Assembly (NCBI RefSeq): GCF_030013205.1
Contig: NZ_CP122648.1
DNA from: Escherichia coli
GTDB lineage: Bacteria > Pseudomonadota > Gammaproteobacteria > Enterobacterales > Enterobacteriaceae
Strand: one strand, 5' to 3'
Length of the DNA: 64,000 nucleotides
Shown here: positions 110 to 51,108 of the stretch, piece by piece
Numbering within the stretch: position 1 is the stretch's first letter
How the letters are laid out: each line of letters starts with the position of its first letter
Position numbers and translations under genes: made by a program
The notes under the pieces: generated by a model
What the model saw: the letters and a program-made list of their open reading frames with translations, nothing else
What the model was told of the DNA's origin: nothing
Databases searched by the model: none

Positions 110-3156
<3,047 letters not shown>

Positions 3157-3163
3157 TGTAAAT

Positions 3164-3194
3164 GCCGGATGAAGCGTTTATGCCGCATCCGGTA
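3164..3194. repeat. REP-like palindromic element (gccggatg...gcatccggta)
   Basis: Imperfect palindrome of REP type in glpK-glpX spacer. Confidence 0.45.
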
Positions 3195-3290
3195 GTCCTG
3201 AATCGTGCGGGGGCAACCCCGCACACATCAATAATCCCGCCCTTCCCCTGTGCTACACTTCGCGCCATTCCTTACTGCTTAGAGTTTGCT

Positions 3291-4301
3291 ATGAGACGAG
3301 AACTTGCCATCGAATTTTCCCGCGTCACCGAATCAGCGGCGCTGGCTGGCTACAAATGGTTAGGACGCGGCGATAAAAACACCGCGGACGGCGCGGCGGT
3401 AAACGCCATGCGTATTATGCTCAACCAGGTCAACATTGACGGCACCATCGTCATTGGTGAAGGTGAAATCGACGAAGCACCGATGCTCTACATTGGTGAA
3501 AAAGTCGGTACTGGTCGCGGCGACGCGGTAGATATTGCTGTTGATCCGATTGAAGGCACGCGCATGACGGCGATGGGCCAGGCTAACGCGCTGGCGGTGC
3601 TGGCAGTAGGCGATAAAGGCTGCTTCCTCAACGCGCCAGATATGTATATGGAGAAGCTGATCGTCGGACCGGGAGCCAAAGGCACCATTGATCTGAACCT
3701 GCCGCTGGCGGATAACCTGCGCAATGTAGCGGCGGCGCTCGGCAAACCGTTGAGCGAACTGACGGTAACGATTCTGGCTAAACCACGCCACGATGCCGTT
3801 ATCGCTGAAATGCAGCAACTCGGCGTACGCGTATTTGCTATTCCGGATGGCGACGTTGCGGCCTCAATTCTCACCTGTATGCCAGACAGCGAAGTTGACG
3901 TGCTGTACGGTATTGGTGGCGCGCCGGAAGGCGTGGTTTCTGCGGCGGTGATCCGCGCATTAGATGGTGACATGAACGGTCGTCTGCTGGCGCGTCATGA
4001 CGTCAAAGGCGACAACGAAGAGAATCGTCGCATTGGCGAGCAGGAGCTGGCACGCTGCAAAGCGATGGGCATCGAAGCCGGTAAAGTATTGCGTCTGGGC
4101 GATATGGCGCGCAGCGATAACGTCATCTTCTCTGCCACCGGTATTACCAAAGGCGATCTGCTGGAAGGCATTAGCCGCAAAGGCAATATCGCGACTACCG
4201 AAACGCTGCTGATCCGCGGCAAGTCACGCACTATTCGCCGCATTCAGTCCATCCACTATCTGGATCGCAAAGACCCGGAAATGCAGGTGCATATCCTCTG
4301 A
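3291..4301 (+). CDS. glpX: fructose-1,6-bisphosphatase class II
   Basis: Translation from MRRELAIEFSRVTESAALA matches GlpX; ORF track start 3162 is an upstream extension. Confidence 0.93.
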   Translation: MRRELAIEFSRVTESAALAGYKWLGRGDKNTADGAAVNAMRIMLNQVNIDGTIVIGEGEIDEAPMLYIGEKVGTGRGDAVDIAVDPIEGTRMTAMGQANALAVLAVGDKGCFLNAPDMYMEKLIVGPGAKGTIDLNLPLADNLRNVAAALGKPLSELTVTILAKPRHDAVIAEMQQLGVRVFAIPDGDVAASILTCMPDSEVDVLYGIGGAPEGVVSAAVIRALDGDMNGRLLARHDVKGDNEENRRIGEQELARCKAMGIEAGKVLRLGDMARSDNVIFSATGITKGDLLEGISRKGNIATTETLLIRGKSRTIRRIQSIHYLDRKDPEMQVHIL

Positions 4302-4397: not shown

Positions 4398-5144
4398 ATG
4401 GCTGATTGGGTAACAGGCAAAGTCACTAAAGTGCAGAACTGGACCGACGCCCTGTTTAGTCTCACCGTTCACGCCCCCGTGCTTCCGTTTACCGCCGGGC
4501 AATTCACCAAGCTTGGTCTTGAAATTGACGGCGAACGCGTCCAGCGCGCCTACTCCTATGTTAACTCGCCCGATAATCCCGATCTGGAGTTTTACCTGGT
4601 CACCGTCCCCGATGGCAAATTAAGCCCACGACTGGCGGCACTGAAACCGGGCGATGAAGTGCAGGTGGTTAGCGAAGCAGCTGGCTTCTTTGTGCTGGAT
4701 GAAGTACCAGATTGCGAAACGCTATGGATGCTGGCAACCGGTACAGCGATTGGCCCTTATTTATCGATTCTGCAACTGGGCAAAGATTTAGAGCGCTTCA
4801 AAAATCTGGTCCTGGTTCACGCCGCACGTTATGCCGCCGACTTAAGCTATTTGCCACTGATGCAAGAACTGGAAAAACGCTACGAAGGCAAACTGCGCAT
4901 TCAGACGGTGGTCAGTCGGGAAACGGCTGCAGGCTCACTCACCGGGAGAATACCGGCGTTAATTGAAAGTGGTGAACTGGAAAGCGCGGTTGGCCTGCCG
5001 ATGAATAAAGAAACCAGCCATGTGATGCTGTGCGGCAATCCACAGATGGTGCGCGATACGCAACAGTTACTGAAAGAGACCCGGCAGATGACGAAACATT
5101 TACGTCGCCGACCGGGCCATATGACAGCGGAGCATTACTGGTAA
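4398..5144 (+). CDS. fpr: ferredoxin/flavodoxin-NADP+ reductase
   Basis: 248-aa translation MADWVTGKVTKVQNWTDALFSL matches Fpr. Confidence 0.93.
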   Translation: MADWVTGKVTKVQNWTDALFSLTVHAPVLPFTAGQFTKLGLEIDGERVQRAYSYVNSPDNPDLEFYLVTVPDGKLSPRLAALKPGDEVQVVSEAAGFFVLDEVPDCETLWMLATGTAIGPYLSILQLGKDLERFKNLVLVHAARYAADLSYLPLMQELEKRYEGKLRIQTVVSRETAAGSLTGRIPALIESGELESAVGLPMNKETSHVMLCGNPQMVRDTQQLLKETRQMTKHLRRRPGHMTAEHYW

Positions 5145-5148
5145 GCGG

Positions 5149-5577
5149 TTACTTATCGATAAACGGCACGATGAGCAAATCCGCACTCAACTTATTGATC
5201 ATCCCGCGATATGCCGGCATCAAACGGTTGATAAATGAGTGGTGATGACCACAGACAAGGAGGTCGCACTGCTCTTTTTGCATAATTTCCAGCAGTGTTT
5301 CCGGCCTTTCTCCGCGTTCAATACGCAGTTTTGTCTTCGGCCATTGAATATTTTTCGTCAGTTTATACAGCTTGTTATCCGACTTATTCTTCAACAATTG
5401 AAGAATATCTTCTGTTGCAGGGAAGTAGATACCCGGATACAACTCGCTTAAGCCATCATCAATATGAATTAACGTCAGGTGAGCGTCATTATGTCTGGCG
5501 AGCTCCAGGGCTTTATTCACCAGTAAGGCATCTTCTTCATTCCCGGAAATTGCCACGCCAATGTGTTTATAAGCCAT
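5149..5577 (-). CDS. uspD: universal stress protein D
   Basis: 142-aa Usp-family translation; position after fpr as in E. coli. Confidence 0.88.
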
Positions 5578-5603
5578 GTTTAACTCCTTCTAAAGCAACT
5601 CCA

Positions 5604-5903
5604 TCAAGCTAACGAACGCAGTGATAACTCAAAAATAATCATCTCGGCCTGGCATGAGAAGGTGAAGGCCGCATCAAGCTCAACTTGCCCCTCCAGATCC
5701 TTAATCTTATAGGCCACGCTGGCCCCTTCATCTGCAGAGGATGCAGCGGCGGCAAGCTCTTTCAGTTTGGTCATAAAGGACTCTGCTTCTTCGCGGGTGG
5801 CAAAAAAGCGCGAAAACTTACTGGTACAGTTGTCGTTATCAATCACCGTACCGATATCAATCGCACATCCTTTAGTACTGCATTTATCTACGACATCTTT
5901 CAT
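5604..5903 (-). CDS. yiiS: DUF406-family protein YiiS
   Basis: 99-aa translation; conserved position between uspD and yiiR. Confidence 0.8.
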
Positions 5904-6114
5904 AGGGCACCTCTGTATATTCGCCTCTCTGTCGATTACGACTTAAGAATAATGCGCCGTTAAGGGAAGAACAAACAAGTAATGATCTTATGGATTACCA
6001 TTTTTTTTGATATTGCTTAAGGTGAAGAGTTCAGAAGGATTTTCCGGGCATTGTCATTTGCATCGAGGAAATAACAATCCCGGAAAAAAATAGCAGTAAG
6101 AGATATATTAAAGG

Positions 6115-6555
6115 TTAATTACTTGATTTATTGTCGGCTTTATACTTCACATCCTGAGTATCTTTACCATATTTATTTTCGCCTTGTGTGCCAACAAACG
6201 CACCAAGATCGATAAGCATCATCACCAGAATCAACGTCGGGACAAAACGCCCCACCGCCCATTGCCAGACACCCGGTAAAATCGCCCAGTTACCCGCCAG
6301 CAGCATCCACGCCACAATCATCAGAAATGCCCATGCGCCGGAACGCCCGCGATCATGCAAGCGCTTAACGGTTACTGCCGCTGTTGGCCAAAGCAAGCAC
6401 ACAAGGCAAAACGCCGCGGTCTGAATATCGAGTAAATTTTTACCCGCCAGTGAGAAAAGCACCAGCATGCCTGCGAACCACAGGCCTATCCAAATCCAGA
6501 AATCACGGCGTCCAATACGCCCTTTGAATGAGAATAACCATTGCTGTATGGTCAT
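6115..6555 (-). CDS. yiiR: inner-membrane protein YiiR (DUF805)
   Basis: 146-aa hydrophobic translation with multiple predicted TM helices. Confidence 0.78.
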   Translation of the reverse strand: MTIQQWLFSFKGRIGRRDFWIWIGLWFAGMLVLFSLAGKNLLDIQTAAFCLVCLLWPTAAVTVKRLHDRGRSGAWAFLMIVAWMLLAGNWAILPGVWQWAVGRFVPTLILVMMLIDLGAFVGTQGENKYGKDTQDVKYKADNKSSN

Positions 6556-6655
6556 GTAAGTTCCTTGATGGTTGTCTTTTCCAGGATTCTACCCTTTTGA
6601 CAAGGGCGACAGATATCGTTTTAATCGGAGCCAGTCATAACAAAAGGTACTGTCA

Positions 6656-7255
6656 ATGAAGCCAGGGTGTACGCTGTTTTTTCTCTTATGTTCTGCATTA
6701 ACCGTTACAACAACGGCGCATGCACAAACACCAGATACGGCAACGACCGCGCCTTATTTGCTGGCTGGAGCCCCTACTTTCGATCTCTCCATCAGCCAGT
6801 TTCGAGAAGACTTTAACAGCCAGAATCCCAGCCTGCCACTGAACGAATTTCGTGCCATCGACAGCAGTCCCGACAAAGCCAATCTCACTCGTGCTGCCAG
6901 TAAAATTAACGAGAACTTGTATGCTTCTACAGCGCTGGAGCGCGGTACCTTAAAAATCAAAAGCATTCAAATGACCTGGCTACCCATCCAGGGGCCAGAG
7001 CAAAAAGCCGCGAAAGCGAAAGCTCAGGAATACATGGCAGCGGTGATCCGCACACTCACCCCATTAATGACCAAAACACAAAGCCAGAAAAAACTGCAGT
7101 CGCTACTAACGGCCGGGAAAAACAAACGTTATTACACCGAGACAGAAGGTGCACTGCGTTATGTTGTCGCGGACAACGGCGAAAAGGGGCTGACCTTCGC
7201 TGTTGAACCGATTAAGCTGGCGCTATCTGAATCGCTTGAAGGTTTGAATAAATGA
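6656..7255 (+). CDS. yiiQ: periplasmic protein YiiQ (DUF1454), signal peptide
   Basis: 199-aa translation with N-terminal signal peptide ending in AHA-Q. Confidence 0.78.
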   Translation: MKPGCTLFFLLCSALTVTTTAHAQTPDTATTAPYLLAGAPTFDLSISQFREDFNSQNPSLPLNEFRAIDSSPDKANLTRAASKINENLYASTALERGTLKIKSIQMTWLPIQGPEQKAAKAKAQEYMAAVIRTLTPLMTKTQSQKKLQSLLTAGKNKRYYTETEGALRYVVADNGEKGLTFAVEPIKLALSESLEGLNK

Positions 7256-7362
7256 CAAAAAGCAAAGCCTTTGTGCCGATGAATCTCTATACTGTTTCAC
7301 AGACCTGCTGCCCTGCGGGGCGGCCATCTTCCTTTATTCGCTTATAAGCGTGGAGAATTAAA

Positions 7363-8130
7363 ATGCGACATCCTTTAGTGATGGGTAACTGGAAACTGAA
7401 CGGCAGCCGCCACATGGTTCACGAGCTGGTTTCTAACCTGCGTAAAGAGCTGGCAGGTGTTGCTGGCTGTGCGGTTGCAATCGCACCACCGGAAATGTAC
7501 ATCGATATGGCGAAGCGTGAAGCTGAAGGCAGCCACATCATGCTGGGTGCGCAAAACGTGGACCTGAACCTGTCCGGCGCATTCACCGGTGAAACCTCTG
7601 CTGCTATGCTGAAAGACATCGGCGCACAGTACATCATCATCGGCCACTCTGAACGTCGTACTTACCACAAAGAGTCTGACGAACTGATCGCGAAAAAATT
7701 CGCGGTGCTGAAAGAGCAGGGTCTGACTCCGGTTCTGTGCATCGGTGAAACCGAAGCTGAAAACGAAGCGGGCAAAACTGAAGAAGTTTGTGCACGTCAG
7801 ATCGACGCGGTACTGAAAACTCAGGGTGCTGCGGCATTCGAAGGTGCGGTTATCGCTTACGAACCCGTATGGGCAATCGGTACTGGCAAATCTGCAACTC
7901 CGGCTCAGGCACAGGCTGTTCACAAATTCATCCGTGACCACATCGCTAAAGTTGACGCTAACATCGCTGAACAAGTGATCATTCAGTACGGCGGCTCTGT
8001 AAACGCGTCTAACGCTGCAGAACTGTTTGCTCAACCAGACATCGACGGCGCGCTGGTTGGCGGTGCTTCTCTGAAAGCTGACGCTTTCGCAGTGATCGTT
8101 AAAGCTGCAGAAGCGGCTAAACAGGCTTAA
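7363..8130 (+). CDS. tpiA: triose-phosphate isomerase
   Basis: 255-aa translation [15 protein letters not shown] with IGHSERR and [15 protein letters not shown] motifs. Confidence 0.96.
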
Positions 8131-8140
8131 GTCTGACAGG

Positions 8141-8161
8141 TGCCGGATTTCATATCCGGCA
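8141..8161. terminator. bidirectional hairpin terminator between tpiA and cdh
   Basis: tgccggat / atccggca inverted repeat between convergent genes. Confidence 0.45.
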
Positions 8162-8184
8162 CTTACTTTCCTTAACTCCTCGCC

Positions 8185-8940
8185 TTAACGCAAAATCTCA
8201 CACTGATGATCCTGGATTTCCTCGGCTGAAGCACGGTTAAGCGTCAGTAGATTTCGTTGTGTCGCCAGCAATACAAATGAGTTATCACTCTGCCGCACCA
8301 TCGCCAGCCCGTAGCTTCCCATATGTTCCCGCGCCTCAGGCACTTCTTCTGCAAGCATCATAAATGGGCTGCGTTGTACCAGTTCGCTTTCCGTTACCCG
8401 ACGCGCCAGGTATTCATGCCCGCGCAAACCACCTGGCAGTGGCAACCAGCGGCTGCTGATGTTCGCCAGATTGTTATCCAGCTGTTCGCGCACATCAGGA
8501 CGAATACAAGAGATATGAATATGAAAATGGTTTTGCGTACGCCCGGTGCGAGAGTTGATCGCCAAAGAAACCGCGCGATCGGGAACCGGCTGGCCGTATT
8601 TTTTGCTCATAAAATCACGCGCCTGCCAGGCCAACCAAAAGAAGTTCGGCGTTGAAGGATCGGTCAACAAAGGACTTTCAGTTCCGTTAATACGATACGT
8701 TGGCATCAACAGATATTGCAGTGGGCCATTAAGATCTTTTAAAACCACGTATCCGGCATTGGGTTTGACTTCCGCACATGGCGAAGGATTTTGATTTTGC
8801 TGCTGATTGGGCAAACATTCCTCAAGGACAATCTTACGTAATGTATCCGACTCTTCACCGGTTAATTTCCAGTAACCAATACCGGCAGCCACAACGGCGA
8901 TAACTATCATCACCAAAAAAAGAAGACCCGCTTTTTTCAT
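8185..8940 (-). CDS. cdh: CDP-diacylglycerol pyrophosphatase
   Basis: Translation from [17 protein letters not shown] matches Cdh; ORF track start 9132 is an upstream extension. Confidence 0.9.
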
Positions 8941-9046
8941 CTTTTTTTCCCTGTACCTCAAAGAGATGCAAGGGTAACGCAAAATCGTGACAAATAAAAA
9001 ACCCGGTCGCGAGAAACCACCGGGTTTGATAATTATCCTGGAGAAA

Positions 9047-10036
9047 TCAGCGTTTGCTGATCTGATCGAACGTACCGCCGTTAGCAAAATGCTCTTTTTG
9101 CGCTTTCGTCCAGCCGCCGAACTCTTCATCAATGGTGAATAACTTCAGCTTTGGAAACGCATTTTCGTACTTTTTCGCCACCTCAGCATCGCGCGGACGG
9201 TAGTAGTTTTTCGCGGCAATTTCCTGACCTTCTGGCGAGTAGAGATATTTCAGGTAGGCTTCCGCCACCTCTTTGGTGCCTTTTTTCTCGACCACTTTAT
9301 CGACCACCGACACGGTTGGCTCTGCGAGGATAGACTCACTCGGCGTAACGATTTCGAATTTATCTTTCCCCAGCTCATTCGCTGCCAGCAGAGCTTCGTT
9401 TTCCCAGGCGATCAGTACATCGCCAATCCCGCGCTCGACAAAGGTATTAGTGGAGCCGCGCGCGCCAGAATCCAGAACTTCGACGTTTTTATAAAGTGCC
9501 CGAACAAAATCCTGCGCTTTTGCCTGATCGTTGTTGTTGTGGTGCAGCGCGTAGCCCCAGGCAGCCAGGTAGTTCCAGCGCGCGCCACCAGAGCTTTTCG
9601 GATTAGGCGTGATCACCGAAACACCCAGTTTAATCAGATCGTTCCAGTCATGGATCTGCTTCGGATTGCCCTTACGCACCAGGAAAACAATGGTGGAAGT
9701 GTACGGTGCGGAGTTATCCGGCAGACGTTTGATCCACTCTTTATCAATCCGCCCGCGTTCCGCAATCGCGTCCACGTCATAGGCCAGAGCCAGCGTGACA
9801 ATATCAGCTTCAATACCGTTGATTACCGACGTCGCTTGTTTACCTGAACCACCGTGTGACTGACGAATCACCACGTTATCGCCAGTTTGCTGTTTCCAGT
9901 GGGCGCTGAATGCCTTGTTGTACTGTTCGTACAATTCGCGCGTTGGATCATATGAAACGTTAAGAAGCTGAATATCCTTTGCCATAACGCTGGTTGCCGC
10001 CAGCAAAAATGTTAACCCTACGCCCCACTTGTTCAT
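9047..10036 (-). CDS. sbp: periplasmic sulfate-binding protein
   Basis: 329-aa translation with signal peptide; matches Sbp. Confidence 0.93.
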
Positions 10037-10147
10037 CGCCCGACTCTCTTATGTTGTGTTGTGATGAGCAAAGCGTGCCAGAAGGTTAACCAAACATTAA
10101 AGAATAAAAAAAGATTGGCTATAACTTGCGGGTATATGTTGAGGGAT

Positions 10148-10170
10148 TAAAAAGGCGGAAGAAATCCGCC
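10148..10170 (-). terminator. rho-independent terminator after pfkA
   Basis: ggcgga/tccgcc hairpin with T-run on the minus strand. Confidence 0.45.
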
Positions 10171-10194
10171 TCATATTGCTGACAAAGTGCGCTT

Positions 10195-10300
10195 TATCGA
10201 TGCCGGATGCGGCGCGAACGCCTTATCCGGCCTACAAAAGTTTGCAAATTCAATAAATTGCAGAATTCACGTAGGCCTGATAAGCGAAGCGCATCAGGCA
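10195..10300. repeat. REP element cluster (BIME-like) between pfkA and sbp
   Basis: Two REP-type palindromes (gatgccggatgcggcg...ccttatccggcctac; gtaggcctgataagcgaagcgcatcaggca). Confidence 0.55.
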
Positions 10301-42513: not shown

Positions 42514-42595
42514 ACACTGCCGGATGCGGCGCGAGCGCCTTATTCGGCCTACGGGTCGTGCATCCGACAACACCGAATTTACAGGAACACAGAAC

Positions 42596-43420
42596 ATGCA
42601 AAACATTACCCAGTCCTGGTTTGTCCAGGGAATGATCAAAGCCACCACCGACGCCTGGCTGAAAGGCTGGGACGAGCGCAATGGTGGTAACCTGACACTG
42701 CGCCTGGATGACGCCGATATCGCACCGTATCACGACAACTTCCACCAACAACCGCGCTATATCCCGCTCAGCCAGCCCATGCCTTTACTGGCAAATACAC
42801 CGTTTATTGTCACCGGCTCCGGCAAATTCTTCCGCAACGTCCAGCTTGATCCTGCGGCTAACTTAGGCGTCGTAAAAGTCGACAGCGACGGCGCGGGCTA
42901 CCACATTCTCTGGGGGCTAACTCACGAAGCCGTTCCAACCTCTGAACTCCCGGCGCACTTCCTCTCCCACTGCGAACGCATTAAAGCCACCAACGGTAAA
43001 GATCGGGTGATCATGCACTGCCATGCCACCAACCTGATCGCCCTTACCTACGTACTGGAAAACGACACCGCGGTCTTCACTCGCCAACTGTGGGAAGGCA
43101 GCACCGAATGTCTGGTAGTGTTCCCGGATGGCGTCGGCATTTTGCCGTGGATGGTGCCCGGCACCGACGAAATCGGCCAGGCGACCGCACAGGAAATGCA
43201 AAAACATTCGCTGGTGTTGTGGCCCTTCCACGGCGTCTTCGGCAGCGGTCCGACACTGGATGAAACATTCGGTTTAATCGACACCGCAGAAAAATCAGCA
43301 CAAGTATTAGTGAAGGTTTATTCGATGGGCGGCATGAAACAGACCATCAGTCGTGAAGAGCTGATAGCGCTCGGCCAGCGTTTCGGCGTTACACCACTCG
43401 CCAGTGCGCTGGCGCTGTAA
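42596..43420 (+). CDS. rhaD: rhamnulose-1-phosphate aldolase
   Basis: Translation from [32 protein letters not shown]; a REP-like palindrome precedes it. Confidence 0.93.
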
Positions 43421-43429
43421 GGAGCAAAC

Positions 43430-43744
43430 ATGATCCGCAAAGCCTTTGTCATGCAGGTTAACCCCGACGCCCACGAAGAGTATCAGCGTCGGCATAATCC
43501 AATCTGGCCGGAACTGGAAGCAGTGTTGAAATCTCACGGTGCGCATAACTACGCCATTTACCTCGACAAAGCGCGTAATCTGCTGTTTGCCACGGTAGAG
43601 ATTGAATCTGAAGAACGGTGGAATGCGGTTGCCAGCACTGAAATCTGCCAACGTTGGTGGAAATATATGACCGACGTTATGCCAGCTAACCCGGATAACA
43701 GCCCAGTCAGTAGCGAGCTGCAAGAAGTGTTTTACCTGCCTTAA
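43430..43744 (+). CDS. rhaM: L-rhamnose mutarotase
   Basis: 104-aa translation [30 protein letters not shown]. Confidence 0.9.
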
Positions 43745-43784
43745 TGAGTTGCGGTGCCGGAAAATATCCAGCACCGCGCCTTCA

Positions 43785-45179
43785 TCAGAAGAAGTATTTA
43801 AAGCGAACGCGTGCGCCGTAACGGTCATCAGTATCATCACCGTGTTTTTTATCACCGTCGCTATCCAGAATGGAGTAATACGTCCCGAGGTAAATATTAA
43901 AGTTCTCCATATCCATCACATTAGCGAACTGATAAGACGCATGAATGGTGTGAATGGTGTACGTCCCTTCATCATCAATCCAGCAGTCGTTATCACAAAC
44001 TACACCGCTGAATTCATCAATCTTATTGTGCGCGTAGATATAACCGAGCTCGAAACGTTTCCACAGCGCGTTAATCCCGGCAGTGAAATCTTTCTCATTA
44101 TTAGCATCTAAATAGGCGGTATTAAGATTAACCACGACGCCATTTTCCGGATCCGTTTTCAGGCCATTCCAGGTCATGCTCATACCATAGCCGGTACGAT
44201 CGGACTGATCGACAAAATTACCCTTGCTATCGGTATAACCATAAGCATTATTTACCACGTTCGCTTCCATCGCTGCGGAAACGGTGAATTCTTCCGTCGG
44301 CGACCAGGCAATTACTGGACGCAGATAAGCAACATTTTTCTGCTGCTCCATATCGCGTCCATGATAATTACTGTCATTATATAAAGATGTTCCGTCTTCA
44401 AGTAACGTGTTTAATTCAAAATACCAGTTATCGAGTTGTTTGCTGACGAGGAAATTACCGCCAGCGTTAGAGCGCCCGCGGCCCTCTTTCATCATATAGA
44501 TATAACCGCTGCCATCGTCATAAAGATCGTTCGCAGTATTACCGGAATGTTCAACAAAGGTATCCTGATTCAGCGGGAACATATCATAGGCTTCGAAACG
44601 ACCGACTTTGACCTTCCAGTCATTCTCTTTCCCAAAGAAGAATACCGCGTCATCAATATTCACTGAACCGTGCATATCCCCCAGCGGTTGTGCGGAGAAC
44701 CCGGCGAAATAACCATTATCCAGTTTTCGCATACCGTCAAAACCTAACAGAATACGACCATTGAGATTCCACTGTTCATTAGTGGGATCGCTATTCACAT
44801 CAGCGTTGGTCATTGCCAGCAGGCCATGATTACTTTCTGCATCCATATTAAATTCTACGTCGCCGTAGATTTTTAAATCGCCATAACCTGAGAGCAAAAG
44901 ATTAGGTGAGGTGGAATTTTTCTTTGCAGATTCCGCCGTTGCCTGTCCATTTACCGGCGTATTGCCCTGGGCAGCCTTAATTTCGCGGATCTCAGCGGCT
45001 TGTTGTGTCTGCAGCTGTTTAACCTGGCTCTCTGCTTTTGCTGCCCGCATTTCTGCCGCTTCCAGGCGTTCTTCCAGCAATGCCATGCGTTGTTCCAGCG
45101 TTAAATGCTGTGTTTTTGCCATTCCGGTACTACATGCCAATAATAAACCGATGGCTAAAGATAATGTCGATTTTTTCAT
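43785..45179 (-). CDS. outer-membrane porin with N-terminal coiled coil (carbohydrate-selective OprB/ScrY-like), accessory
   Basis: Signal peptide, coiled-coil segment aa ~25-70, aromatic-rich beta-strand pattern, C-terminal RFKYFF; AT-rich; not in the K-12 rhaM-frvA spacer as I recall it. Confidence 0.65.
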   Translation of the reverse strand: MKKSTLSLAIGLLLACSTGMAKTQHLTLEQRMALLEERLEAAEMRAAKAESQVKQLQTQQAAEIREIKAAQGNTPVNGQATAESAKKNSTSPNLLLSGYGDLKIYGDVEFNMDAESNHGLLAMTNADVNSDPTNEQWNLNGRILLGFDGMRKLDNGYFAGFSAQPLGDMHGSVNIDDAVFFFGKENDWKVKVGRFEAYDMFPLNQDTFVEHSGNTANDLYDDGSGYIYMMKEGRGRSNAGGNFLVSKQLDNWYFELNTLLEDGTSLYNDSNYHGRDMEQQKNVAYLRPVIAWSPTEEFTVSAAMEANVVNNAYGYTDSKGNFVDQSDRTGYGMSMTWNGLKTDPENGVVVNLNTAYLDANNEKDFTAGINALWKRFELGYIYAHNKIDEFSGVVCDNDCWIDDEGTYTIHTIHASYQFANVMDMENFNIYLGTYYSILDSDGDKKHGDDTDDRYGARVRFKYFF

Positions 45180-45655
45180 TATTTACGTTCCCTGAAATAA
45201 AAGAGACCCTACGCTTTCCAAAAGGAATACGTATATAGAGAAATATAAGGTGTGCACTTTCGAATTTTTAATCCAACTTCAGCAGGCCGATGGATAGTAT
45301 CCCGCTGCATAATATGAGTAAATCCGCTGATTTCCTGGAACGTGAGGAATATAACAATAGTGCCGTTTTTAACCAAATATCGTAAAAAATATTAGATATA
45401 ATTCACGCTGACTCATAAGCCACAAATATAAATAACCTTGCTGCAAAACATGTGCGGCAGTTAAACATTCACAACATCATTAAATAATGATTTTTTATTC
45501 ACTGCATTTATTTTGCCCATCAATATGTGCCTTACACCGCAAAATTTATCCTTCACTCTGCCTTATATTGTCACGACTTCACGACATATCCGCGCTCATC
45601 ACAAAACCGCCCCGCCGTTACAATTAACAATAATATTTTTTCATGGAGTCCAATA

Positions 45656-46102
45656 ATGGCAGCACTTACTGCAAGCTGTATTGACCTGAATATTCAGGGC
45701 AATGGCACTTATTCCATTCTGAAGCAGTTGGCGACAATGGCGTTACAAAACGGTTTTATCACCGACTCACACCAGTTCCTGCAAACTCTGCTGCTGCGCG
45801 AAAAAATGCACTCCACCGGTTTTGGTTCCGGCATCGCCGTGCCGCACGGTAAAAGCGCCTGCGTTAAACAACCGTTCGTGTTATTCGCCCGCAAAGCGCA
45901 GGCCATTGACTGGAAAGCCAGCGACGGCGAAGACGTCAATTGCTGGATCTGCCTCGGCGTGCCGCAAAGTGGCGAAGAGGATCAGGTCAAAATCATCGGC
46001 ACACTGTGTCGCAAAATTATCCACCAGGATTTTATCAACCAACTGCGACAGGGCGACGCCGACCAGGTGCTTGCTTTGTTAAATCAAACCCTCAGCTCAT
46101 AA
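45656..46102 (+). CDS. frvA: PTS fructose-like EIIA component
   Basis: Translation from MAALTASCIDLNIQGNGTYSILKQ. Confidence 0.85.
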   Translation: MAALTASCIDLNIQGNGTYSILKQLATMALQNGFITDSHQFLQTLLLREKMHSTGFGSGIAVPHGKSACVKQPFVLFARKAQAIDWKASDGEDVNCWICLGVPQSGEEDQVKIIGTLCRKIIHQDFINQLRQGDADQVLALLNQTLSS

Positions 46103-46106
46103 GGAA

Positions 46107-47564
46107 GTGGCGATGGAGTCATCCTTACGTATTGTCGCGATCACCAACTGCCCCGCCGGGATCGCTCACACCTACATGGTGGCGGAAGCCCTGGAACAGA
46201 AAGCCCGTTCTCTCGGCCATACCATAAAAGTGGAAACTCAAGGATCCAGTGGCGTTGAAAACCGCTTATCCAGCGAAGAGATTGCCGCTGCCGATTACGT
46301 GATTCTCGCCACCGGGCGTGGCCTGAGCGGTGACGATCGCGCGCGGTTTGCCGGGAAAATGGTTTATGAGATTGCCATCTCCCAGGCGCTGAAAAATATC
46401 GACCAGATTTTCAGTGAATTACCGACAAATTCGCAGCTTTTTGCCGCAGATAGCGGCGTGAAGCTCGGCAAACAGGAAGTACAAAGCGGCAGCGTGATGA
46501 GCCACCTGATGGCGGGTGTCTCTGCGGCGCTGCCGTTTGTCATCGGTGGCGGTATCCTGGTGGCGCTTGCCAACATGCTGGTGCAGTTCGGTTTGCCGTA
46601 TACCGATATGTCGAAAGGCGCGCCGTCGTTTACCTGGGTGGTTGAATCCATCGGTTATCTCGGCTTCACCTTTATGATCCCCATCATGGGCGCTTATATT
46701 GCCTCGTCGATTGCCGATAAACCCGCTTTCGCTCCGGCGTTTCTGGTTTGCTATCTGGCGAATGACAAAGCCCTGCTCGGCACCCAGTCTGGCGCGGGCT
46801 TCCTCGGCGCGGTGGTGCTGGGGCTGGCGATTGGCTATTTCGTCTTCTGGTTCCGTAAAGTGCGCCTGGGCAAAGCATTACAACCGCTGCTCGGTTCCAT
46901 GCTGATCCCGTTCGTCACTCTGCTGGTTTTCGGCGTACTGACTTACTACGTTATCGGACCGGTGATGTCCGACCTCATGGGCGGGTTGCTGCACTTCCTG
47001 AACACCATTCCTCCGTCAATGAAGTTTGCGGCAGCGTTTTTGGTCGGTGCGATGCTGGCGTTCGATATGGGCGGCCCTATCAATAAAACCGCCTGGTTCT
47101 TCTGCTTCTCACTGCTGGAAAAACACATTTATGACTGGTACGCCATCGTCGGCGTTGTCGCGCTGATGCCGCCCGTCGCGGCGGGTCTTGCGACGTTCAT
47201 TGCGCCCAAACTGTTTACTCAACAGGAAAAAGAAGCCGCCAGTAGCGCCATTGTGGTCGGTGCCACGGTCGCGACCGAACCGGCTATTCCTTACGCTCTG
47301 GCGGCACCACTGCCAATGATTACCGCCAATACGCTGGCGGGCGGCATTACCGGCGTGCTGGTGATCGCTTTCGGAATCAAACGACTGGCACCTGGTTTGG
47401 GTATCTTTGACCCGCTGATCGGCCTGATGTCGCCGGTGGGTTCGTTTTATCTGGTGCTGGCGATTGGCCTCGCGCTGAACATTTCATTCATTATCGTCCT
47501 GAAAGGATTATGGTTACGCCGCAAAGCGAAAGCCGCGCAACAGGAGCTTGTCCATGAACATTGA
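46107..47564 (+). CDS. frvB: PTS fructose-like EIIBC component
   Basis: 485-aa translation, N-terminal EIIB (VAITNCPAGIAHT) plus polytopic EIIC. Confidence 0.85.
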   Translation: MAMESSLRIVAITNCPAGIAHTYMVAEALEQKARSLGHTIKVETQGSSGVENRLSSEEIAAADYVILATGRGLSGDDRARFAGKMVYEIAISQALKNIDQIFSELPTNSQLFAADSGVKLGKQEVQSGSVMSHLMAGVSAALPFVIGGGILVALANMLVQFGLPYTDMSKGAPSFTWVVESIGYLGFTFMIPIMGAYIASSIADKPAFAPAFLVCYLANDKALLGTQSGAGFLGAVVLGLAIGYFVFWFRKVRLGKALQPLLGSMLIPFVTLLVFGVLTYYVIGPVMSDLMGGLLHFLNTIPPSMKFAAAFLVGAMLAFDMGGPINKTAWFFCFSLLEKHIYDWYAIVGVVALMPPVAAGLATFIAPKLFTQQEKEAASSAIVVGATVATEPAIPYALAAPLPMITANTLAGGITGVLVIAFGIKRLAPGLGIFDPLIGLMSPVGSFYLVLAIGLALNISFIIVLKGLWLRRKAKAAQQELVHEH

Positions 47565-50427: not shown

Positions 50428-51108
50428 TTAACGCAGGCTATTATAGTCATCGACCATTTCGTTGTACTCGCGTAACGCTCGCGGAAATGAGTCGTCGACC
50501 ATCCAGCTTGTGTTTGCATCCTGAAGTTGCTCTTTATCCCAGTCAGAGTACGGAACTTTATCTCTGACGCGGCGAACATATTTTTTAGCCTCGAGTTGAT
50601 ACTGGTCTGCCGAATTAATGAACGAGAAATTCATACCGCCTTTATCCGCTTCTTTGGCCTGCGCCACCAGCGTTTCCAGTTCAGAGACTTTCTTCATTGC
50701 CGCATCAACATCAAACTTCTCTTGCGAAATCAGGTTATTAATTTGTTTCGCTGAAATCATGACTGCCAGAGAGTAGTAGTGGAATGTTTTCCCTTCTCTT
50801 TGTTCAATATTTTTCAGTTCCGCAAGCTGGCGCTTATCGTTAATTTCCTGAATCGCCGCATGATAAGATTCTGCTACAGGTTCAAAGGCTTCAAGATTTT
50901 TTAAGAATGTCTGGTGCAGCGTTTTCCCTTTCGCAAACGCATCGTCTTTATAATTTTCCTGGGTGTAATATTTATCCATTTCGTTAATGGTATTACCCAA
51001 CGCCACGGCAGTATCAATATAACTTACCGCCACGCCATCAATAGGTTGCAGCGCAGGCGTTAACGCCACTACACGCGCTTTGTTTATAAATAAAATAATA
51101 AAATTCAC
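50428..51108 (-). CDS. yiiG: conserved protein at the yiiG position
   Basis: 226-aa ORF between frvR and fdhD; function unknown. Confidence 0.55.
   Translation of the reverse strand: MNFIILFINKARVVALTPALQPIDGVAVSYIDTAVALGNTINEMDKYYTQENYKDDAFAKGKTLHQTFLKNLEAFEPVAESYHAAIQEINDKRQLAELKNIEQREGKTFHYYSLAVMISAKQINNLISQEKFDVDAAMKKVSELETLVAQAKEADKGGMNFSFINSADQYQLEAKKYVRRVRDKVPYSDWDKEQLQDANTSWMVDDSFPRALREYNEMVDDYNSLR

What the first reader, a model, noticed from the sequence alone, without database searches (positions are those of the whole stretch)
43745..45655. Accessory porin gene inserted between rhaM and frvA
A 464-aa outer-membrane protein is encoded on the opposite strand to both the rha and frv operons. 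It has a signal peptide, a coiled-coil N-terminal extension as in ScrY-type sugar porins, and a C-terminal aromatic residue. It is AT-rich (~43% GC) and bounded by a hairpin at 43751-43778 and a 475-bp AT-rich spacer. As I recall, K-12 has rhaM adjacent to frvA with no gene between. Its position between two sugar-utilisation clusters suggests a substrate-specific channel.
Basis: partly seen in the sequence, partly recalled or inferred. Interest (0 to 1): 0.4.

Follow-up and report, generated by a model that had tools for sequence, protein, structure and literature searches.

The report
Chromosomal RafY-family porin lost from K-12
The gene between rhaM and frvA is an intact, already annotated outer-membrane porin of the RafY family that is an old resident of this locus, kept by about half of E. 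coli and lost from K-12 and its relatives, so it is ordinary rather than a new insertion.

Summary
A 464-aa ORF (43785-45179, minus strand) fills the rhaM-frvA interval. It has a signal peptide, an N-terminal coiled coil, a C-terminal Phe, 45% GC, a 3' hairpin and a 476-bp AT-rich upstream spacer. K-12 MG1655 has no gene there.

It was not inserted. Orthologues (69-85% identity) lie beside rhaM and/or frvA in Citrobacter, Kluyvera, Trabulsiella, Superficieibacter, Pseudocitrobacter and Enterobacter-like species. Trabulsiella has the same frvBA-porin-rhaMDAB order. In E. coli the gene is in 2557 of 5426 complete genomes, is under strong purifying selection (dN/dS 0.04), and is as diverged as its flanks. 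K-12 therefore carries a derived loss.

A CRP-like site (TGTTA-N6-TCACG) is conserved only in this orthologue group and would sit at -61.5 of a conserved weak promoter.

RefSeq calls the gene "carbohydrate porin", and one paper calls the O157 copy rafY2. Function and regulation are inferred, not shown.

The parts
43785..45179 (-). CDS of the 464-aa RafY-family (Pfam Porin_8) outer-membrane porin; stop codon at 43785-43787
   Evidence: ORF list. Pfam PF16966, 514.7 bits against a cut-off of 25, E=1.9e-154. RefSeq WP_025210072.1 'carbohydrate porin' in the 100%-identical strain CFSAN018748.
45117..45179 (-). Sec signal peptide, residues 1-21, with predicted cleavage after G-M-A. It is not a lipoprotein: Cys16 is not conserved in orthologues.
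   Evidence: Read from the sequence. Ala21 is at least 90% conserved, and Citrobacter and Kluyvera have no Cys here.
44970..45098 (-). Periplasmic N-terminal alpha-helix (residues 28-70), a coiled-coil extension with the conserved motif LEQRLxxLExRLxxAExRA
   Evidence: AlphaFold helix 28-70, pLDDT about 86. Invariant E29, R31, E36, R38, L39, E43, R45. Weak Pfam Sugarporin_N match, 15.3 bits, below the 25.7 cut-off. Some orthologues carry a precomputed PF11471 hit.
43788..44879 (-). 16-stranded beta-barrel (residues 101-464) ending in the C-terminal ...FKYFF signal
44460..44597 (-). Long loop between strands 5 and 6 (residues 195-240). It is the most conserved stretch of the family and sits where loop L3, the constriction loop, sits in classical porins.
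   Evidence: Strand boundaries 188-194 and 241-249. Near-invariant FEAxDMFPLNQDTF...GYIYMMKEGRGRS. Assigning it a constriction role is an inference.
43983..43997 (-). Conserved Cys395-x3-Cys399 pair in a surface loop; a possible disulfide
   Evidence: Both Cys are at least 90% conserved in alignment A1. The loop has low model confidence. The disulfide is an inference.
43751..43777 (.). GC-rich hairpin in the 40-bp gap between the convergent rhaM and porin stop codons; a probable two-way transcript end or 3' stabiliser
   Evidence: -29.9 kcal/mol, z=-6.3 on the porin strand; -21.9, z=-3.7 on the rhaM strand. It has no U-tract. Unrelated GC-rich hairpins sit in the same gap in Citrobacter, Kluyvera, Trabulsiella and Pseudocitrobacter, two of them with A/U tracts.
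45341..45356 (-). CRP-like site TGTTATATTCCTCACG (TGTtA-N6-TCACg), conserved only in this orthologue group
   Evidence: It is the most conserved upstream block apart from the ribosome-binding site. Present in 15 of 16 rhaM/frvA-linked orthologues examined. In the genome-collection scan it is in 10 of 11 linked loci and 0 of 43 other loci. Taken alone in the window, a match with 2 mismatches is no rarer than chance. CRP binding was not tested.
45294..45322 (-). Predicted weak sigma-70 promoter: -35 TTTACT (45322-45317), 17-bp spacer, -10 TACTAT (45299-45294). The predicted start near 45287 would put the CRP-like site at -61.5.
   Evidence: TTTAC lies exactly 18 nt after the CRP-like site in 13 of the 15 orthologues that carry it, the exceptions being Trabulsiella (TTTTC) and RIT691 (TTCCA), and a TAnnnT-type hexamer follows 17 nt later in most. 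It matches 8 of 12 consensus positions, below the scan threshold. The transcription start is inferred.
45242..45271 (-). Alternative promoter-like site, TTAAAA-18-TATATT
   Evidence: Consensus scan, 9 of 12 positions. Partly conserved A/T-rich block. Not tested.
45188..45231 (-). Leader: palindrome CGTATTCC-TTTT-GGAAAGCG (45212-45231) and ribosome-binding site AGGGAA (45188-45193), 8 nt before the ATG
   Evidence: Read from the sequence. In Citrobacter the stem TTCC/GGAA is kept while the loop changes, and TTTATTTCAAGGAA is conserved. The role of the palindrome is unknown.
43746..45520 (.). The 1775-bp segment present here and replaced by 164 unrelated bp in K-12-type genomes. It contains the hairpin, the CDS and the whole predicted porin promoter.
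   Evidence: Homology to a K-12-type genome stops right after the rhaM stop codon (window 43745) and resumes at 45521.
45521..45655 (+). frvA-proximal part of the spacer, shared with K-12 (about 76% identity); presumably holds the frvA promoter
   Evidence: blastn, 75.6% over 131 bp. Its function was not tested.

Best explanation
The gene encodes a chromosomal orthologue of the RafY glycoporin (Pfam Porin_8, TCDB 1.B.15).

Shown or modelled here: a Sec signal peptide; a periplasmic coiled-coil helix (residues 28-70); a flexible linker; a 16-stranded barrel with a long, highly conserved loop at the L3 position; and a C-terminal Phe.

Inferred from its relatives: it forms a wide diffusion channel that helps di- and oligosaccharides too large for efficient passage through OmpF/OmpC to reach the periplasm, and it is probably a trimer.

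Inferred from sequence conservation: it has its own weak promoter, activated by cAMP-CRP from a site at -61.5, so it would be made when preferred sugars are scarce.

Shown by synteny and divergence: it is an ancestral resident of the rhaM/frvA junction in the Escherichia-Citrobacter-Kluyvera group. About 47% of complete E. coli genomes keep it, some with frv (as here and in O157:H7) and some without (B2 strains). K-12-type strains lost it.
For: Family: Pfam Porin_8 full length, E=1.9e-154. 78.7% identity to the porin that ends plasmid rafR-rafA-rafB-rafD clusters.

Ancestry: the orthologue lies next to rhaM in Citrobacter, C. rodentium and Kluyvera. Among the loci of the genome-collection scan, the 11 with at least about 70% identity to the query all lie beside rhaM and/or frvA, and none of the 43 more distant ones does. 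Trabulsiella has the same gene order. The gene is in 2557 of 5426 E. coli genomes, 1378 of them with frvA adjacent.

Selection: dN/dS 0.043; dS 0.27, similar to rhaD 0.29 and rhaM 0.21.

Losses by deletion are seen directly: the B2 type lacks frv, and HS30-1 has an IS1 deletion that leaves a 75-bp remnant of the porin.

Regulation: the CRP-like site and its fixed spacing to -35 and -10 elements are conserved in this orthologue group only.

Sugar role of the family: paralogues lie inside sucrose, raffinose, trehalose and GH65 loci. A K. pneumoniae RafY-family porin, GlyP, gave a fitness advantage that its authors link to carbohydrate competition (bioRxiv 10.64898/2026.03.29.715108).
Against: No expression, localisation or transport data for this chromosomal gene were found.

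The CRP-like site has two mismatches and, taken alone, is no rarer than chance in the window (26 matches found, 26.5 expected). Another regulator could use it.

The transcription start is inferred, and a second promoter-like site lies closer to the gene.

The gene is AT-rich compared with its neighbours and its orthologues, so it may be silenced under laboratory conditions.

Its frequent loss shows it is dispensable.

The trimer and the pore width are extrapolated from relatives.
Confidence: 0.8

Rival explanations
1. One reading: a horizontally acquired accessory gene for a substrate-specific ScrY/LamB-type sugar channel, inserted between two sugar operons.
For: Absent from K-12. GC is 45% against 55-56% for most neighbours. 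N-terminal coiled coil with a weak Sugarporin_N match. A close relative travels on plasmids, and the two genes have exchanged sequence.
Against: The same position is occupied in at least seven other genus-level groups. Divergence equals that of the flanks. No mobile-element genes, tRNA or direct repeats were seen at the borders, and K-12 has 164 unrelated bp in its place. There is no LamB, OprB or KdgM hit. The barrel has 16 strands, not 18, and ScrY and LamB are weaker fold matches.
Confidence: 0.05
2. The porin belongs functionally to the rhamnose system and admits rhamnose-containing oligosaccharides or glycosides that are then broken down to L-rhamnose.
For: Adjacency to rhaM is the most constant feature of the orthologue group. 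It holds in Citrobacter, Kluyvera, Trabulsiella, Superficieibacter, Pseudocitrobacter and B2 E. coli even where frv is absent. Both the rhaBAD and rhaT promoter regions also carry CRP-consensus matches.
Against: It is convergent with rhaM, separated from it by a hairpin, and has its own promoter. No meaningful similarity to the rhaS-rhaB or rhaT control regions was found. The 18 bp between the CRP-like site and the -35 element leave no room for a RhaS dimer site (inference). No glycosidase for rhamnosides is encoded in the cluster. Enterobacter sp. ENT03 has the porin beside frvA with no rhaM within 6 kb. K-12-type and O111 strains keep the rha genes without the porin.
Confidence: 0.1
3. The porin is the outer-membrane partner of the frv PTS, whose substrate is unknown, and is co-regulated with it from the shared divergent spacer.
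For: It is divergent from frvA across about 0.5 kb in E. coli, Trabulsiella and Enterobacter sp. ENT03. Sugar porins often accompany PTS transporters; in Serratia a RafY-family porin sits in a PfkB kinase / porin / PTS EIIBC / GH32 cluster.
Against: The porin is retained, intact and under selection, in B2 E. coli and Citrobacter, which lack frv. K-12 keeps frv without the porin. The conserved upstream elements keep their register with the porin, not with frvA. In two taxa (Kluyvera genomosp. 1 and RIT691) more than 2 kb separates the two genes.
Confidence: 0.08
4. The gene is a silent relic, for example silenced on its AT-rich DNA, on its way to being lost.
For: AT-rich gene and spacer. Several independent losses in E. 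coli. No expression data were found in the literature held.
Against: The reading frame is intact in every copy read here, and the gene matches at 80% coverage or more in 2557 genomes, mostly at 93-100% identity. dN/dS is 0.043 within E. coli and about 0.03-0.06 against other genera. The promoter, ribosome-binding site and the group-specific upstream site are conserved.
Confidence: 0.07

Closest known systems
RafY glycoporin of raffinose plasmids (pRSD2 type; Pfam PF16966 Porin_8; TCDB 1.B.15)
   Same: Same family and the same length (464 aa). 78.7% amino-acid identity. Same layout: signal peptide, coiled coil, 16-strand barrel, C-terminal Phe. Nucleotides about 700-1300 are 90-93% identical, closer than the Citrobacter orthologue is.
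   Different: This gene is chromosomal and stands alone, with no rafR, rafA, rafB or rafD nearby. It lies between rhaM and frvA. The first 400 nt are only 53-72% identical. Its upstream region carries the CRP-like site, which the plasmid rafY upstream region lacks. Its channel properties have not been measured.
'rafY2' of E. coli O157:H7, the same gene in another lineage
   Same: O157:H7 genomes carry this gene at the same locus with about 97.5% nucleotide identity. A comparative-genomics paper notes a rafY homologue, annotated rafY2, in O157:H7, which lacks rafRABD (PMC4809568).
   Different: That the rafY2 of the paper is this locus is my inference from the genomes. The paper reports no functional work on it.
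ScrY and LamB sugar porins (Pfam LamB PF02264, Sugarporin_N PF11471; TCDB 1.B.3)
   Same: Outer-membrane sugar-uptake role. ScrY-like N-terminal periplasmic coiled coil. In Serratia a RafY-family porin sits between a PfkB kinase and PTS/GH32 genes, which is the position of ScrY in scr regulons as I recall them.
Classical 16-stranded trimeric porins (OprP, Omp-Pst1, Omp32, OmpU/OmpT, VhChiP, DcaP, OprB)
   Different: Only 8-14% sequence identity, with no sequence-level family match.
GlyP, a RafY-family porin of Klebsiella pneumoniae
   Same: A chromosomal RafY-family porin whose increased expression gave a fitness advantage that the authors link to carbohydrate competition (bioRxiv 10.64898/2026.03.29.715108).
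   Different: Different locus and regulator (glyR, in an operon with other structural genes). Its sequence relationship to this gene was not measured here.

Membership tests
RafY glycoporin family (Pfam PF16966 Porin_8 / TCDB 1.B.15) | Match to the family HMM above the curated cut-off, over the whole profile | tested here: met
   514.7 bits against a cut-off of 25, E=1.9e-154; profile positions 1-372 of 372 on residues 104-464.
RafY glycoporin family (Pfam PF16966 Porin_8 / TCDB 1.B.15) | Close homology to the founding member, the porin at the end of plasmid rafRABD clusters | tested here: met
   78.7% identity over residues 15-464 to the porin downstream of LacI-family regulator / alpha-galactosidase / MFS transporter / GH32 genes on IncF plasmids.
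RafY glycoporin family (Pfam PF16966 Porin_8 / TCDB 1.B.15) | 16-stranded outer-membrane beta-barrel with signal peptide and C-terminal aromatic residue | tested here: met
RafY glycoporin family (Pfam PF16966 Porin_8 / TCDB 1.B.15) | Large general diffusion channel without sugar-binding saturation | not testable with these tools
   Known for plasmid RafY only from the title of Andersen et al. 1998 (cited in PMC4827864); the paper itself is not held. Testing this gene needs lipid-bilayer measurements.
LamB/ScrY sugar porins (PF02264; TCDB 1.B.3) | Match to the LamB family HMM | tested here: not met
   No hit at E<=1 in the Pfam scan.
LamB/ScrY sugar porins (PF02264; TCDB 1.B.3) | 18-stranded barrel | tested here: not met
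LamB/ScrY sugar porins (PF02264; TCDB 1.B.3) | ScrY-type N-terminal periplasmic coiled coil (Sugarporin_N, PF11471) | tested here: inconclusive
   15.3 bits, E=0.024, below the 25.7 cut-off. However, there is a confident helix at 28-70, and several orthologues carry a precomputed PF11471 hit.
OprB carbohydrate porins (PF04966) | Match to the OprB family HMM | tested here: not met
KdgM oligogalacturonate porins (PF06178) | Match to the KdgM HMM; small barrel (12 strands in TCDB's table) | tested here: not met
   No hit at E<=1. The model has 16 strands and a mature protein of 443 aa. TCDB lists KdgM at 12 strands.
cAMP-CRP class I activated promoters | CRP site centred near -61.5 of a weak sigma-70 promoter, with CRP-dependent transcription | tested here: inconclusive
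   An 8-of-10 match to TGTGA-N6-TCACA is conserved in 15 of 16 orthologues, with fixed spacing of 18 nt to TTTAC and a further 17 nt to a -10-like hexamer in most of them. The transcription start and CRP dependence were not tested, and the match alone is not significant.

The most novel reading that the evidence does not exclude
The rhaM-linked porin may be a distinct, vertically inherited orthologue group of the RafY family with its own conserved catabolite-controlled promoter. It may be the chromosomal source, or a regular recombination partner, of plasmid rafY. Its presence/absence polymorphism in E. coli (about 47% of complete genomes) could be kept by a trade-off between access to oligosaccharides and exposure to phages, colicins or antibiotics. 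Because K-12 lacks it, a widespread E. coli porin would have escaped functional study.
Probability: 0.25. Interest if true: 0.45.

Novelty: already known. Interest (0 to 1): 0.2.

Why it matters
The practical value is modest. About half of complete E. coli genomes, including O157:H7, ST131 and other B2 strains, and Nissle 1917, encode an extra large-channel porin that the K-12 model organism lacks. This could bear on uptake of dietary oligosaccharides in the gut, on outer-membrane permeability to antibiotics when OmpF/OmpC are lost (compare the Klebsiella GlyP report), and on phage or colicin receptor repertoires.

It also matters for annotation. Pan-genome studies can count this stand-alone chromosomal gene as 'rafY' and over-read it as raffinose utilisation; in PMC12987596 only 23 of 45 rafY-positive isolates had a complete rafABD operon.

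As a discovery it is not new. The family, the gene and its annotation already exist. What this analysis adds is the ancestral-locus argument and a testable prediction of CRP control.

Tried and rejected
- NCBIfam scan: no meaningful hit.
- PDB sequence search: nothing related.
- Rfam scan of 43000-46500 at E<=1: nothing, so no known RNA element in the spacer or the 3' gap.
- Terminator scan: it does not call the 43751-43777 hairpin because there is no T-tract, and its five other calls lie inside coding sequence.
- RhaS/RhaR sites: I compared the porin upstream region with the rhaS-rhaB and rhaT control regions. Only short matches turned up (best 11 nt, E=0.095), they are not conserved in other genera, and I rejected them.
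- Remnants in K-12: its 164 unique bp match neither the porin segment nor any fetched locus. The loss is therefore not a clean deletion, and its mechanism remains open.
- First AlphaFold run with 28 close homologues: poor model (pLDDT 59). Adding 32 distant representatives raised pLDDT to 80.
- Lipoprotein idea (LLAC at residues 13-16): rejected, because the Cys is absent from orthologues.
- The primary RafY papers (Ulmke 1997, Andersen 1998) are not in the held library. Their content is cited only through other papers and their titles.
- Searches for 'rafY2' and 'glycoporin' found no functional study of the chromosomal gene.
Full report
**1. What is in the sequence**

The interval 43745-45655 is exactly the space between the stop codon of rhaM (43742-43744) and the start of frvA (45656). 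It holds one long ORF on the minus strand, 43785-45179, 464 aa, with an ATG start. The ORF is convergent with rhaBADM and divergent from frvABXR.

The window is 100% identical over this region to E. coli CFSAN018748 (swine, Denmark), where RefSeq annotates the ORF as 'carbohydrate porin', WP_025210072.1.

- **Signal peptide:** MKKSTLSLAIGLLLACSTGMA|K. Ala21 is at least 90% conserved, and the Cys at position 16 is not conserved, so this is not a lipoprotein.
- **N-terminal helix:** residues 28-70.
- **C-terminus:** ...RFKYFF.
- **Composition:** GC is 45.0% for the CDS and 43.1% for the interval, against 50-56% for the neighbours.
- **Spacer:** 476 bp at 36.1% GC.
- **Hairpin:** 43751-43777, -29.9 kcal/mol, z=-6.3, but without a U-tract.
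- **K-12:** MG1655 has rhaM (b3901) and frvA (b3900) side by side, 300 bp apart.

**2. What the protein is**

Pfam gives one strong answer: PF16966 Porin_8, 'porin-like glycoporin RafY', 514.7 bits, E=1.9e-154, covering the whole profile on residues 104-464.

Only the ScrY-type N-terminal extension (Sugarporin_N) gives a weak match below its cut-off on residues 27-54. NCBIfam has no model for the protein, and the PDB has no sequence relative.

The founding member of the family is RafY of raffinose plasmids. On IncF plasmids, the porin that follows the LacI-family regulator, alpha-galactosidase, MFS permease and GH32 invertase genes is 78.7% identical to this protein.

The family is small. An exhaustive search of 1.84 billion cluster representatives finds only 234 at E<=0.001, many of them fragments.

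**3. Fold**

An AlphaFold run on 28 close homologues was poor (pLDDT 59). Adding 32 distant representatives gave pLDDT 80.2 and pTM 0.71.

The model has a helix at 28-70, a disordered linker to about residue 100, and 16 long beta-strands. A 46-residue loop (195-240) lies between strands 5 and 6. That is where the constriction loop L3 lies in classical porins, and it is the most conserved part of the family.

The protein therefore resembles ScrY in its periplasmic coiled coil but not in its barrel.

**4. It was not inserted; K-12 lost it**

Other genera. The closest non-E. coli homologues (81-85% identity) are chromosomal proteins of Citrobacter, including C. rodentium, and of Kluyvera. In all of them the gene lies immediately downstream of rhaM and convergent with it, as here.

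A scan of one genome per species returned 54 loci. The 11 with at least about 70% identity to the query all lie beside rhaM and/or frvA:
- Citrobacter sp. R56
- two Pseudocitrobacter
- two Superficieibacter
- two Kluyvera
- Trabulsiella odontotermitis
- Enterobacter sp. ENT03
- Enterobacteriaceae bacterium RIT691
- one Klebsiella oxytoca copy

None of the 43 more distant homologues does. Trabulsiella has the identical order frvB-frvA / porin / rhaM-rhaD-rhaA-rhaB.

Divergence from Citrobacter (84% amino-acid identity) is in the range of the neighbouring RhaB (84%), RhaM (89%) and RhaD (92%).

Within E. coli:
- The gene is present at 80% coverage or more in 2557 of 5426 complete genomes.
- 1378 of these have frvA next to it, including O157:H7.
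- The other roughly 1180 lack frvA beside it. The examples listed are B2-type strains (UPEC, ATCC 25922); in ATCC 25922, frvABXR and part of yiiG are missing.
- K-12-type genomes keep frv but lack the porin.
- Some O111:H8 strains also lack the porin but have a fucO-like gene between rhaD and rhaM, as Citrobacter does.
- One strain shows an IS1-mediated deletion that leaves a 75-bp 3' remnant of the porin.

Selection. Between this allele and the B2 allele, dN/dS is 0.043. dS (0.27) matches rhaD (0.29) and rhaM (0.21). The gene is therefore functional and has been inherited together with its flanks.

The K-12 border. Homology to a K-12-type genome stops right after the rhaM stop codon and resumes at 45521. 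In between, K-12 has 164 bp that match nothing I fetched. The loss is old or complex, and its mechanism is open.

Low GC is specific to the E. coli copy. The syntenic orthologues have 49-53% GC, and plasmid rafY has 39.6%.

**5. Regulation (inferred)**

I aligned the upstream regions of 14 syntenic orthologues. Apart from the ribosome-binding site, the only strongly conserved block is TGTTA-N6-TCACG (window 45341-45356). It is an 8-of-10 match to the CRP consensus TGTGA-N6-TCACA.

The block occurs in 15 of 16 syntenic orthologues. In the genome-collection loci it is in 10 of 11 linked loci and 0 of 43 others, and it is absent upstream of plasmid rafY.

In 13 of the 15 orthologues that carry the block, a TTTAC -35-like element follows it after exactly 18 nt; Trabulsiella has TTTTC and RIT691 has TTCCA. 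A TAnnnT-type hexamer follows 17 nt later in most of them. In E. coli these are TTTACT at 45322-45317 and TACTAT at 45299-45294.

With a start near 45287, the site would be centred at -61.5, the class I CRP geometry. The core promoter matches only 8 of 12 consensus positions, as expected for an activator-dependent promoter.

Caveats:
- A two-mismatch CRP match is no rarer than chance in this window (26 found, 26.5 expected). Only its conservation and fixed spacing give it weight.
- The transcription start is unmapped.
- The scan tool finds another promoter-like site at 45271-45242.

The leader contains the palindrome TTCC-N4-GGAA, whose stem is kept in Citrobacter while the loop changes. Its role is unknown. 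I found no convincing RhaS- or RhaR-type sites.

The whole predicted porin promoter lies inside the segment that K-12 lacks. The last 135 bp before frvA are shared with K-12.

**6. The 3' hairpin**

A GC-rich stem-loop lies between the two convergent stop codons in every genus examined. The sequences are unrelated, and two of them (Kluyvera, Pseudocitrobacter) are classic two-way terminators with A and U tracts. The E. coli hairpin lacks the U-tract. It is probably the shared transcript end or 3' stabiliser of rhaM and the porin, but that is an inference.

**7. Likely function**

Family-level evidence points to sugar uptake.
- Plasmid RafY sits in the raffinose operon. [quoted passage not shown] 1997, as summarised in PMC4809568 and PMC12987596).
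- The title of Andersen et al. [quoted passage not shown]
- Paralogues in other genera lie in sugar loci:
  - PfkB kinase / porin / PTS EIIBC / GH32 in Serratia
  - LacY-like permease plus GH32 in Klebsiella oxytoca and Erwinia
  - trehalase plus an MFS_2 transporter (plus GH3 in Klebsiella) in Enterobacter and Klebsiella
  - GH65 plus a HAD-family hydrolase in Pectobacterium
- A K. pneumoniae family member, GlyP, gave a fitness advantage that its authors link to carbohydrate competition (bioRxiv 10.64898/2026.03.29.715108).

I therefore favour a wide, probably trimeric, catabolite-controlled diffusion channel for di- and oligosaccharides.

Two narrower readings cannot be excluded but are weakened:
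- **Rhamnose system.** This rests only on conserved adjacency.
- **frv PTS.** This rests only on the divergent arrangement.

The porin survives without frv (B2 E. coli, Citrobacter) and, in one species, without rhaM nearby. The rha and frv operons both survive without the porin (K-12).

**8. Novelty and verdict**

The gene is annotated in thousands of RefSeq genomes and belongs to a curated Pfam family. A comparative-genomics paper notes a rafY homologue, annotated rafY2, in O157:H7, which lacks the raf operon (PMC4809568). I found no functional study of the chromosomal gene in the library held.

The finding is real but ordinary. The family assignment and the 'insertion' story need correcting. 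The small additions here are the ancestral-locus argument, the 16-strand fold assignment and a testable prediction of CRP control.

Noticed in passing
L066 (CP057400.1, plasmid pRHB27-C22_5) 1621-7584: A conjugative IncI-gamma/K1 plasmid carries MFS transporter, GH32 hydrolase, a porin 99.8% identical to the window's, then rhaM and rhaD. It looks like a raf-type cluster that recombined with the chromosomal porin-rha segment, so chromosomal rha genes now travel on a plasmid.
   Followed up: partly
window 43785-45179 compared with L067 6950-8344: Plasmid rafY and the chromosomal gene form a mosaic. The first 400 nt are 53-72% identical, while nt 700-1300 are 90-93% identical. That is closer than the syntenic Citrobacter orthologue (73-84%) and suggests exchange between the plasmid and chromosomal copies in Escherichia.
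   Followed up: partly
L068 (E. coli O111:H8 strain 8B) 2856-4004: Some E. coli carry a fucO-like lactaldehyde reductase gene between rhaD and rhaM, and no porin. Citrobacter and Kluyvera have the same Fe-ADH gene there. The rhaD-frvA stretch thus exists in at least four gene-content haplotypes in E. coli.
   Followed up: no
window 42514-42595 compared with L065 and L003: The rhaA-rhaD spacer is 82 bp in this strain but about 450 bp in K-12 and in ATCC 25922. The nature of the extra sequence, possibly repetitive extragenic elements, was not examined.
   Followed up: no
window about 50428-51069 (L001 13129-13770): yiiG (DUF3829) is annotated as a truncated pseudogene lacking its N-terminus in the identical strain. 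B2 strains have a different truncation at the end of their frv deletion.
   Followed up: no
L069 (E. coli HS30-1) 2501-3290: An IS1A element abuts a 75-bp 3' remnant of the porin gene, and everything from there to fdhD (the rest of the porin, frvABXR, yiiG) is gone. This is an independent deletion at the locus, mediated by an insertion sequence.
   Followed up: partly
L035 (Serratia grimesii) 4842-10255: A RafY-family porin (about 55% identical) sits between a PfkB-family sugar kinase and PTS EIIBC plus GH32 genes. As I recall scr regulons, that is the position ScrY holds, so the two porin families appear interchangeable in such loci.
   Followed up: partly
window 45521-45820 compared with K-12 (L065): The frvA upstream region and the start of frvA are unusually diverged from K-12: 86.6% in this 300-bp bin, against 93-99% elsewhere in the locus. 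FrvA protein is 93.9% identical, FrvB 99.6%.
   Followed up: no
L004, L007 and L009, about 6000-7650: In Citrobacter and Kluyvera the porin is preceded, in the same orientation, by an HTH_3/cupin regulator gene that is divergent from azlCD-like genes. frv is absent or further away. The non-rha flank of the porin is therefore variable.
   Followed up: no
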